A stretch of DNA of 64,000 nucleotides from Lingula anatina (lineage: Eukaryota; Animalia; Brachiopoda), in the NCBI GenBank assembly GCA_051362555.1, contig CM120644.1, positions 18,498,534 to 18,562,533 on the forward strand. Reading direction: 5' to 3'. Below, piece by piece: positions 5,901-8,392 of this stretch; positions within the stretch are counted from its first letter, which is position 1, and each line of letters opens with the position of its first letter. Below the pieces are notes generated by a model. It did not search any database. It was given only the letters and a program-made list of their open reading frames with translations, and was not told the DNA's origin. Both the position numbers and the translations under genes were made by a program.

Positions 5901-8392
5901 GACACCAGCGCCCCCGAACAGACCTGCAGCACACGAGACAAAACTCACTAAAGATACATCATTCTAATAATAGTAATATAGTTTCCCATTATTAACAGAA
6001 TGGTTCTTATTAACAACTATTATCAAGTTTAAAAAAATCAGCTTATGACCTTGTATAAATCGTCATGATCTTTTTCTTTCAATGTCTCTGTTAAACTTGG
6101 CAACCAATTCCAAATTTCTACATTTGACAGGTTTTCCATGAAATACATTTTAGTGAGAACAGTACCCTCTTCTCTGAGGTAAGACAAAGGCACTTCTGGT
6201 TTTAAAATATAACTTGCTACTGAATTTGATAATCATCCCCACAGATCTTAAATCAATAACAAAATTCATGCCTCAATCACTAAGCGAAGTAATGGTATCA
6301 ACACCCATGTTTCTGTGTTATAATGTTTTCATCACTGGCATGAATACAAATCAGAAGAAAAAACTCTGATCACCTTAATTTATTTCAGCACCAAACAATC
6401 AAATTTTATATCATATCCTATCGACTAATTAACCTTTTTTTGTATAAAAATGAAGTGTTTTGTCCTCACAATGCAAAGAATTCTACAACAGAAAAGACTG
6501 GACACATGTCCTGTGCCACTCTTACCAATTTTTCCACCCTTGGCATAGGGGGCCAAAAGATCTACCACTTTGATGCCCGTCTCCAAAATTTCCTGGTTGA
6601 CACTCATTTCTACAAACTCTGGGGCTTCAGCGTGGATGGGGGCAAACCTTTAAATAAACAGTTCACATTAATAAAAAGAACACTATTCTGAAAAAATTAT
6701 GATGAAAAATTAAAAAGATACTGAAATCAACATTTATAATATGACCCCACTCTGAGATGAAATTCTACAAGCAGAAACTTCAACTACTGGATAATAAAAA
6801 TTGAATCAAAATGTTTTTGCATGCTCGTGTTGTTAAACCTCGACTCAAACACAAAGCTGAATTTTTGGCACAGTATTTTCAATTGGTACCATACAGCCAA
6901 CTTCATTGAACCTACCACCCTTATTTTCAACTCATGCCAAAACAATACCATATCTGGTTCAAGTAAATAGAGTAGTGAACTCACTTTTTGGAACCAATGG
7001 GCCCTCTCTCATCTATGGGTTCTCCAATGACGTTCATAATACGGCCTAGGGTCTGTGGTCCCACGGGTATACTGATGGGGTTCCCTGTGTCCACTACCTC
7101 CTGGCCTCGGACCAACCCTTCTGTACCGTCCATGGCTATTGTTCTCACAGTGTTTTCACCTGCAGAATTGAAGTTGCCCATCAAGTATTTCTCAAATGTA
7201 AATACTTCATGATACATTATTTGTCACGAATATATAAGATCCTTTAATTTTCTACATGGCTTAATTTTAAACTGTCCATATTTAACAACATTTAAGTTCT
7301 TAACATTTTGAATTTACTCGTAATTTTACTCATATACTCCTGTGATTTTGTACTTAACCTTTTAAGGTGAGAAAACTAAAAATAACTGTCATTTTTCAGG
7401 ATAACATAAGCAAAATAAATTCACATCACCGTAAAATGCTTAAAAGTGAGATGTTCACTAACCTAGATGTTGTGATACTTCTAAAACTAGTCTGCTACTC
7501 CTCCCAGTGACCTCCAAGGCATTTAGAATAGGAGGCAGTCCCTCTGAAAACTGTACATCTACGACGGCACCAATAACTGCCACAATCTTTCCCTTTGGGA
7601 GAGCCGACTGAGCGGCTTTTGCCGCAGCTTCCGCTGCATAGTTACGTCCTGAAAAACAATCATTTAAAGGTGAGATGCCACTTTACTTTTCATCTGAATG
7701 AAAGTCTCATACAAATTGTTGATTTTTTGTGTGGATATTTTGAGAAACATGGATTTTGACTGTTTATTTGCTCCAAATGTATGAATCACCTTCCCTTCTT
7801 CCTTACTTGTATGTAATCTAGAAGGGTATTTAAATTATGACCAGTTCACTATATTAAACTGCAGTTTATCAGAAAATGATAAGGAATTTGAAAAACATAG
7901 GCGTTTTTACTCTTGCGCTTTTGCATTGTGTGGAGACATTTTTTTAACAATATCATTTTACTGCATGAAATCTGAGCAAGCACGAGAAACAGTCAAGCTC
8001 TATCTCCCGTTTTGAATTTAGATTCTAATTAATTATGCCTTCGTCACATGCATTGGCATCGGTTTTGCAGAAAATATTTCGTAGAATCTCGATACATTTT
8101 ATATCTTGGTGTCACTGACAAATAAGAATTCAACTCTGAACACGTAAACATATTATCGTTTAGCATAAATCTATTTGCCAGGTAAGAAGGGGAGAGCATG
8201 TGAACTTGGCGGACGCGCTTCATCAAACAATTTTCAAGCGTTTCCACTTAGACAACATATGGATGCAAACTTACGTGATACTAGATGACCGGAAGCAGCT
8301 TTTGTTGCAGTGTCTGTTAGTTTTTGTTGAATAATATTCGCCTTAGAGGCGGCTAAGACCCTTTTGCAACAACGTCCTACTGCCTGCATCAT
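2990..8392 (-). CDS. ATP5F1B: Mitochondrial F1F0 ATP synthase subunit beta, 10 exons, 528 aa
   Basis: Exons 8392-8275, 7648-7463, 7159-6985, 6647-6526, 5923-5739, 5433-5275, 4790-4668, 4193-3981, 3637-3436, 3093-2990 (sum 1587 nt). Contains a basic N-terminal transit peptide, Walker [38 protein letters not shown] and DELSEED. Confidence 0.98.
3780..3855 (-). ncRNA. Intronic box C/D snoRNA candidate, copy B (ATP5F1B intron 8)
   Basis: On the minus strand: terminal stem TTTTGCC/GGCAAAA, box C variant ATGATTA, internal CAGA (D') and TTGATG (C'), guide ATTACTTCGCTTAGTGG, then box D variant ATGA. Paralogous to 6265-6344. Confidence 0.7.
4747..5080 (-). repeat. Decaying roughly 100-110 bp tandem duplication of the intron 6/exon 7 junction of ATP5F1B
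   Basis: The motif ctggtaacctacagctga...cagcagggcagacacctgcaat of exon 7 recurs at about 4857-4908, 4961-5015 and 5055-5080 with increasing divergence. Confidence 0.8.
6265..6344 (-). ncRNA. Intronic box C/D snoRNA candidate, copy A (ATP5F1B intron 4)
   Basis: On the minus strand: 8-bp terminal stem TTCATGCC/GGCATGAA, canonical box C GTGATGA, internal CAGA and TTGATA, guide ATTACTTCGCTTAGTGA, box D variant TTGA. Same strand as the host gene. Confidence 0.8.

What the first reader, a model, noticed from the sequence alone, without database searches (positions are those of the whole stretch)
6265..6344. Two hidden paralogous C/D snoRNAs in ATP synthase beta introns, predicted to target the 5' end of 28S rRNA
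Seen: introns 4 (6265-6344) and 8 (3780-3855) share CACTAAGCGAAGTAAT. On the host strand each copy has a terminal stem, box C, D'/C' and a variant box D (TTGA, ATGA) directly after the shared guide, while spacers and outer stem base pairs differ. Known: the conserved 28S segment at the ITS4 primer site reads GCAUAUCA(C/A)UAAGCGGAGG, and human ATP5F1B hosts SNORD59A/B, whose guide (18S target) is different. Inference: the guide CUUCGCUUAGUG(A/G) pairs about 13 nt with UCACUAAGCGGAG (one G-U), and the A/G difference between copies keeps pairing with U. The D+5 rule points to the U in CAC-U-AAGCGG. By my count this is equivalent to plant 25S U48, which I recall as methylated in plants and not among human 28S sites. 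This would be an animal guide for that site and a change of snoRNA cargo in a conserved host gene.
Basis: partly seen in the sequence, partly recalled or inferred. Interest (0 to 1): 0.8.

Follow-up and report, generated by a model that had tools for sequence, protein, structure and literature searches.

The report
Brachiopod snoRNA pair for plant-type site
Two introns of a brachiopod's ATP synthase beta gene each carry a short conserved sequence shaped like a box C/D guide RNA, predicted to direct a ribose methylation near the start of the large ribosomal RNA at a position that, among the published maps checked, is methylated in plants but not in vertebrates, flies or yeast.

Summary
The host gene splices to a protein identical (528/528) to Lingula anatina ATP5F1B. 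Introns 4 and 8 each hold a C/D snoRNA-shaped element: terminal stem, boxes C, D', C', D, and a shared 16-nt guide region. The three paired positions that differ between the copies all change on both sides and still pair. Copy 1 has 1 variant in 82 nt against 33 in 335 nt of flank (p 0.006). Host-strand RNA reads pile over copy 1 in 1 of 3 mRNA-type runs. The guide pairs 13 nt with the CAC-variant LSU rRNA 5' end; D+5 falls on Rfam LSU position U47, the site of Arabidopsis Um48 guided by snoR16. snoR16 is the best C/D-box Rfam match for both copies but below threshold (28 and 21 bits; cut-off 45), and similarity outside guide and boxes is at chance, so orthology versus convergence is open. Not shown: Lingula's own 28S, a mature small RNA, the methylation, or any other animal homologue. 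Verdict: new members of a known class with a target not found in the animal maps I read.

The parts
2991..8392 (-). Host gene ATP5F1B (mitochondrial ATP synthase beta), 10 coding exons, 9 GT-AG introns
   Evidence: Spliced translation identical to P0003 at 528 of 528 residues
6264..6345 (-). C/D snoRNA copy 1 in intron 4, with 9-bp terminal stem (6345-6337 / 6272-6264)
   Evidence: Rfam snoR16 28.2 bits, E 0.37; 1 variant in 82 nt
6329..6335 (-). Copy 1 box C (GUGAUGA)
   Evidence: sequence
6312..6315 (-). Copy 1 box D' (CAGA)
   Evidence: sequence; same motif in copy 2
6298..6304 (-). Copy 1 box C' (GUGUUGA)
   Evidence: sequence
6277..6289 (-). Copy 1 D-box guide, 13 nt complementary to LSU rRNA model positions 43-55; D+5 at 6281
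6273..6276 (-). Copy 1 box D (UUGA), first U pairs G-U with box C
3780..3855 (-). C/D snoRNA copy 2 in intron 8, with 7-bp terminal stem (3855-3849 / 3786-3780)
   Evidence: Rfam snoR16 21.4 bits, E 0.43 on a 341-nt search
3841..3847 (-). Copy 2 box C (AUGAUUA)
3825..3828 (-). Copy 2 box D' (CAGA)
3812..3818 (-). Copy 2 box C' (AUGUUGA)
3791..3803 (-). Copy 2 D-box guide; D+5 at 3795
3787..3790 (-). Copy 2 box D (AUGA), first A pairs U-A with the changed box C base

Best explanation
Introns 4 and 8 of Lingula ATP5F1B each carry a copy of one box C/D element that is likely released from the spliced intron as a roughly 70-80 nt snoRNA and is predicted to guide fibrillarin to 2'-O-methylate the uridine at Rfam LSU position 47 of 28S rRNA, the site that snoR16 methylates in plants (25S Um48). 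Shown: sequence anatomy, paralogy, compensatory pairing, low polymorphism of copy 1, complementarity and register. Inferred from the class: splicing, exonucleolytic trimming to the boxes, assembly with 15.5K/NOP56/NOP58/fibrillarin on the C/D kink-turn, and methyl transfer at D+5. Only the D guide appears to be used; the D' guide regions differ between copies.
For: (1) Anatomy in both copies; a simple C/D-plus-stem scan of both strands of the 64-kb window returns only these 2, and 0 in each of 5 shuffles (thresholds were set after seeing the candidates). (2) Of the 7 shared stem pairs 2 differ between copies, both on both sides (A-U to U-A, C-G to U-A); the C/D stem-II pair also changes on both sides (G-U to U-A), while the G-A, A-G and U-U kink-turn pairs are invariant. 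(3) Copies are 47/63 identical from C to D, against 37/64 and 29/64 in AT-rich flanks. (4) Among haplotypes in runs X7 and X11, 1 variant in the 82-nt element (in the spacer after box C) against 33 in the 335-nt 3' flank, Fisher p 0.006; the guide, D, C' and D' lie in an 80-nt variant-free stretch. (5) Duplex with LSU rRNA: D+2 to D+10 all Watson-Crick, one G-U at D+11, -21.1 and -20.4 kcal/mol, better than any other site in 13 partial rDNA contigs (best -18.6 and -18.5). (6) Best C/D-box Rfam match of both copies is snoR16 with the guide in the same register; Arabidopsis RiboMeth-seq assigns 25S U48 to SnoR16 (PMC8053127 Table 1). (7) In poly(A) run X11, 26 reads (13 pairs), all of one orientation consistent with the host strand, pile to depth 17 over the element and its immediate 3' flank, 5 molecules end at 6386, none lie in 6390-6520: the shape of a 5'-trimmed, 3'-extended precursor. 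(8) The CAC variant of the 28S site exists in an animal (sea star primer, PMC6238125).
Against: Lingula's own 28S was not obtained, so the target is assumed from other eukaryotes. Both D boxes and one C box depart from consensus, and both copies score below the snoR16 gathering score (45). Copy 1 folds no better than shuffles (z -1.62, 17 of 200; copy 2 z -2.94, 0 of 200). Runs X14 and X17 gave 2 and 0 reads on intron 4, no read ends mark the predicted mature ends, and no small-RNA library was available. The read gap upstream may partly reflect haplotype divergence near 6363-6386 and read filtering near exons. No animal homologue was found among 62 metagenome loci. Box D lies 349 nt (copy 1) and 149 nt (copy 2) from the 3' splice site, further than the 70-80 nt recalled as optimal in mammals. 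Predicted sites can be wrong: 31 of 75 predicted Drosophila sites were not confirmed (PMC11014333).
Confidence: 0.8

Rival explanations
1. The elements are real C/D snoRNAs but their main job is not methylating 28S U47: they chaperone folding of the 28S 5' end, or methylate another RNA (an snRNA, a part of rRNA not examined, a neighbouring position).
For: Non-consensus D boxes; only partial rDNA of other species was searched, no snRNA or mRNA; D+6 targeting is documented for other guides (PMC8053127).
Against: The register equals that of snoR16, whose site is experimentally methylated; D+2 to D+10 are perfect pairs.
Confidence: 0.1
2. One copy (more likely copy 2, with changed C and D boxes) or both are decaying snoRNA pseudogenes after a local duplication.
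For: Copy 2 departs from consensus in both C and D; no reads or polymorphism data were obtained for copy 2.
Against: Copy 2's two changes restore a Watson-Crick pair, its stem is compensated and its guide is intact; copy 1 is depleted of variants.
Confidence: 0.07
3. The shared sequence is a chance or repeat-derived similarity, or an antisense fragment of rDNA, with no RNA function.
For: AT-rich introns; no whole genome was held, so genome-wide copy number is untested; Rfam E-values are only 0.37 and 0.43.
Against: Only 2 matches in 64 kb; complementarity stops exactly at a D box and is framed by C, C', D' and a compensated stem in both copies; variant depletion.
Confidence: 0.03

Closest known systems
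Plant snoR16 (Rfam RF00296), guide for 25S Um48
   Same: Box C/D layout, similar spacing of D' and C', D-box guide in identical register on the same LSU site; target U48 mapped by RiboMeth-seq (PMC8053127 Table 1, passages seen).
   Different: Score 28.2 and 21.4 bits against a cut-off of 45; guide adapted to the CAC variant and with a G-U at D+11; D boxes UUGA/AUGA; the plant D' guide (U2456 for SnoR16.1) is not kept; intronic in ATP5F1B, whereas plant snoR16 is reported in a cluster with U43 (PMC5122169); similarity outside guide and boxes is at chance (p 0.38 and 0.13).
Human SNORD59A/B in ATP5B (ATP5F1B)
   Same: Two paralogous C/D snoRNAs in introns of the same housekeeping host gene (PMC3766210 table, passages seen).
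   Different: Target is 18S A1031, not 28S; no SNORD59 match in the Lingula gene at E up to 1. Whether the introns are positionally the same was not tested.
Unannotated guides for the same LSU site in unidentified eukaryotes (L002/L019 group, L007 group)
   Same: Box C, guide in the same register, CUGA D box and short terminal stem; L007 lies about 540 nt from a SNORD24 match.
   Different: Different spacers, not in ATP5F1B, and also below the snoR16 gathering score (3 of 3 such loci scanned), which shows the Rfam model misses divergent guides for this site.

Membership tests
Box C/D methylation-guide snoRNA | [quoted passage not shown] | tested here: met
   G-A, A-G, U-U pairs invariant; stem-II pair G-U / U-A; copy 1 box C exact, copy 2 one mismatch; both D boxes one mismatch at the first base
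Box C/D methylation-guide snoRNA | Terminal stem flanking C and D | tested here: met
   9 bp and 7 bp, two compensated positions
Box C/D methylation-guide snoRNA | Internal C' and D' boxes | tested here: met
   CAGA and RUGUUGA in both copies, degenerate
Box C/D methylation-guide snoRNA | 10-21 nt antisense element directly upstream of D or D' complementary to rRNA or snRNA | tested here: met
   13-bp duplex with LSU rRNA of other eukaryotes; the species' own 28S not seen
Box C/D methylation-guide snoRNA | Accumulates as a discrete small RNA bound to fibrillarin | tested here: inconclusive
   Precursor-like pile in 1 of 3 mRNA-type runs on copy 1; no small-RNA data
Box C/D methylation-guide snoRNA | Target nucleotide at D+5 is 2'-O-methylated | not testable with these tools
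   needs RiboMeth-seq or primer extension
snoR16 (RF00296) | Reaches the Rfam gathering score of 45 bits | tested here: not met
   28.2 and 21.4 bits; none at gathering threshold in the window
snoR16 (RF00296) | D-box guide for the 25S U48 position | tested here: met
   same register in the Rfam alignment; D+5 on LSU model U47
snoR16 (RF00296) | Conserved D' guide of plant members | tested here: not met
   D' guide regions differ between copies and from plants
snoR16 (RF00296) | Common descent shown by similarity beyond guide and boxes | tested here: inconclusive
   box-preserving shuffles p 0.38 and 0.13
SNORD59 | Rfam match and guide for 18S A1031 | tested here: not met
   no match at E up to 1 in window 1-12000; guide matches LSU instead

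The most novel reading that the evidence does not exclude
The 'plant' LSU methylation Um48 and its snoR16 guide predate the plant-animal split, survive in slowly evolving invertebrates such as Lingula that keep the plant-like 28S 5' sequence, and were lost separately in vertebrates, flies and yeast; ATP5F1B has served as a snoRNA host with different cargo in brachiopods and vertebrates.
Probability: 0.35. Interest if true: 0.62.

Novelty: new member of a known kind. Interest (0 to 1): 0.45.

Why it matters
Animal rRNA 2'-O-methylation maps come from a few vertebrates, Drosophila and one planarian; in those tables the first 28S site lies at nt 181 or later. A guide for the nt 47 site in a brachiopod would show that a modification treated as plant-type also occurs in animals, and gives a precise, cheap test (one primer extension). 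It would mean that model-organism maps under-count ancestral sites, and it adds a case to the documented mobility of snoRNAs among broadly expressed host genes (PMC3511168). The mechanism itself is textbook, and no function is known for this methylation in what I read, which caps the interest.

Tried and rejected
No whole genome held: no genome-wide copy count and no access to the species' rDNA. Viral contigs held no match to the 28S pattern. Metagenome scan for C box + guide + D box: 62 loci; 0 of 62 had a tblastn match to five ATP5F1B exons; 24 carry the plant-type guide end, 4 and 10 two other guide types, and the other 24 were not pursued, many lying inside long ORFs. Run search: no RNA holder listed. 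Runs X14 and X17 gave 2 and 0 reads on intron 4; reads were laid on intron 4 only, so copy 2 and the exons have no read evidence. D' guide regions: best duplexes with the partial rDNA contigs only -8.3 and -11.7 kcal/mol, no shared target; the 28S region of the plant D' target was not covered by these contigs. Test for homology to plant snoR16 beyond boxes: not significant. The H/ACA match TtnuHACA27 on copy 2 (22.3 bits, cut-off 80, E 1.9) was rejected as chance. One search used a structure string out of register and is uninformative; pairs were read by coordinate. Planarian MethScores at nt 20-58 show no site high on both ends, but the register of that reference against the mature 5' end is not given, so it is no test. 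Earlier findings of the scan: nothing by sequence, words or genome. Paper searches for snoR16/Um48, mollusc snoRNAs, Lingula or brachiopod snoRNA/28S, invertebrate RiboMeth and nematode maps listed no report of these RNAs or of an animal guide for this site; the library is limited to open-licence papers.

Full report
Host gene. The minus strand of window 8392-2991 holds ten coding exons with nine GT-AG introns; their translation is identical at 528 of 528 residues to P0003, which NCBI names ATP synthase subunit beta, mitochondrial, of Lingula anatina.

Observation. The 12-nt core occurs twice in 64 kb against 0.13 expected, and the shared 16-mer is the longest string common to any of the 36 intron pairs of the gene. 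Each copy has a terminal stem (9 and 7 bp), box C, D' (CAGA), C' (RUGUUGA), the guide and a variant box D. A crude scan for C box, D box and a stem of 7 bp or more finds only these two on both strands of the window and none in 5 shuffles; its thresholds were chosen after seeing the candidates, so it shows rarity, not an unbiased p-value.

Signs of selection. Read by coordinate, the seven shared stem pairs differ at two positions, each on both sides (A-U to U-A, C-G to U-A). The variant D boxes are matched by box C: G-U in copy 1, U-A in copy 2, while the G-A, A-G and U-U pairs of the kink-turn are the same. This is only two sequences, so three events. Independent of that, DNA contigs of run X7 and RNA reads of run X11 laid on intron 4 show 32 substitutions and 5 indels; 33 fall in the 335 nt downstream of the element and 1 in its 82 nt, in the spacer after box C (Fisher p 0.006). 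The few haplotypes are related and variants are linked, so the p-value is approximate. Folding energy helps little: z -1.62 and -2.94.

Expression. Three mRNA-type runs were laid on intron 4 only. X11 gave 26 reads (13 pairs), all with the first mate on +, which in usual stranded libraries means host-strand RNA; depth peaks at 17 over 6250-6309, five molecules end at 6386, about 40 nt upstream of the stem, and no read lies in 6390-6520 or 5930-5989. That is the shape expected of a 5'-trimmed, 3'-extended snoRNA precursor, but the numbers are small, X14 gave 2 reads and X17 none, haplotypes diverge near 6363-6386, and reads touching conserved exons may be filtered. No mature ends were seen and copy 2 was not examined.

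Target. Thirteen eukaryotic rDNA fragments contaminating prokaryote assemblies carry the CAC variant of the LSU 5' segment (selected by that pattern, species unidentified); a primer designed for a sea star shows the variant in an animal (PMC6238125, one passage), and it also occurs in bryophytes (PMC11462125, one passage). Rfam places the segment at the start of the LSU model (3 of the 13 loci scanned). The guide pairs with model positions 43-55: Watson-Crick from D+2 to D+10, G-U at D+11, and D+5 opposite U47, which the Rfam structure line draws in an internal loop. Energies are -21.1 and -20.4 kcal/mol, against at best -18.6 and -18.5 elsewhere in those partial contigs. Lingula's own 28S could not be obtained: this is the largest gap.

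Comparison. Rfam's only match in window 1-12000 at E up to 1 is plant snoR16 on copy 1 (28.2 bits, E 0.37); copy 2 has snoR16 as its best C/D match (21.4 bits, E 0.43 in 341 nt). The guide aligns base for base with the snoR16 D guide. Arabidopsis RiboMeth-seq assigns 25S U48 to SnoR16 (PMC8053127, passages incl. Table 1), and a review lists Um48 in three plants and predicted Um46 in Ostreococcus with human and yeast blank (PMC11542601, section 6). A plant snoRNA survey dates snoR16 to the flowering-plant ancestor (PMC5122169, passages). The first 28S or LSU site in other maps: Am398/393/400 in human, mouse, Xenopus and zebrafish (PMC11649923 Dataset EV2, part 1), nt 181 in planarian, Gm789 in Drosophila (PMC11014333 Table 1), Gm711 in Dictyostelium (PMC8817022 Table 1); none of the 10 26S-Um entries of Neurospora lies below 667 (PMC2780460, passages). 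For Tetrahymena (PMC3273799), nucleomorphs (PMC6461891), Xenopus (PMC6984369) and the Drosophila S2 preprint I saw passages only, with nothing on this site; their supplements, which I did not see, may bear on it. C. elegans, trypanosomatid and Euglena maps were not read; I recall, unchecked, that trypanosomatid LSU rRNA has a methylated U near this position, which would favour an ancient site.

Orthologue or convergence. The metagenome scan recovered plant snoR16 (L005, 84.7 and 81.7 bits) and two groups of divergent guides in the same register from unidentified eukaryotes, which Rfam does not call; no locus lay beside ATP5F1B exons (0 of 62). Between box C and the guide the Lingula copies resemble six plant sequences more than full shuffles do (p 0.006, 0.005) but not more than shuffles that keep D' and C' in place (p 0.38, 0.13). 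So they work like snoR16 but are not filed as members of RF00296.

Host gene. Human ATP5B hosts SNORD59A/B for 18S A1031 (PMC3766210, passages). No SNORD59 was detected in the Lingula gene. Unrelated snoRNAs in orthologous, broadly expressed host genes are a described pattern (PMC3511168, passages), so this is an example, not a new principle, and replacement cannot be told from independent gain.

Verdict. Real C/D snoRNA pair, about 0.9; guide for 28S U47 methylation, about 0.8; ancient orthology with snoR16, about 0.35. I found no report of these RNAs or of an animal guide for this site in the searches, nor among earlier findings. New member of a known kind; interest 0.45.

Noticed in passing
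window 4878-4930 (-): Intron 6 holds a 53-nt, 87% identical duplicate of the 3' splice site and first codons of exon 7, a pseudo-exon with an AG acceptor; shorter similar pieces appear further upstream in the same intron.
   Followed up: partly
window 6363-6386 and from 6481: Run X7 contigs diverge from the window here (loose ends), suggesting indel haplotypes just upstream of copy 1.
   Followed up: no
window 16674-16755 (-) and 17643-17724 (+): Two tRNA genes in inverted orientation about 0.9 kb apart (Rfam 63.0 and 64.5 bits).
   Followed up: no
window 53830-54381 (+): ORF ending in a basic C-terminus and followed directly by a genomic poly(A) run; ESM Atlas look-alikes are peptide-hormone precursors and unnamed proteins, all under 0.9, so a lead only.
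   Followed up: partly
window 18700-25100 (-): Exons with repeated W-S-x-W-G-x-C-S-x-T-C-G motifs (thrombospondin type 1-like, label recalled) and other cysteine-rich pieces, apparently one multi-exon gene.
   Followed up: no
L007:4001-4069 (-), also L014, L015, L024, L026, L031, L033, L038, L052, L057: Unannotated C/D-like RNA with a guide for the same LSU site fitted to a third rRNA variant, near a SNORD24 match in a gene-dense eukaryote contig.
   Followed up: partly
L019:4001-4064 and 5026-5095 (+); L002, L037: Another unannotated guide type for the same site, present as two copies 1 kb apart in a GC-rich contig.
   Followed up: partly
L039:4001-4071 (-): Match in a non-coding contig with the same G-U-forming U at D+11 as the Lingula guide and a CUGA D box; organism unknown.
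   Followed up: no
L063-L075: Thirteen GTDB genome contigs, including three from cultured isolates with a near-identical fragment (L066, L067, L073), are eukaryotic rDNA contamination.
   Followed up: partly
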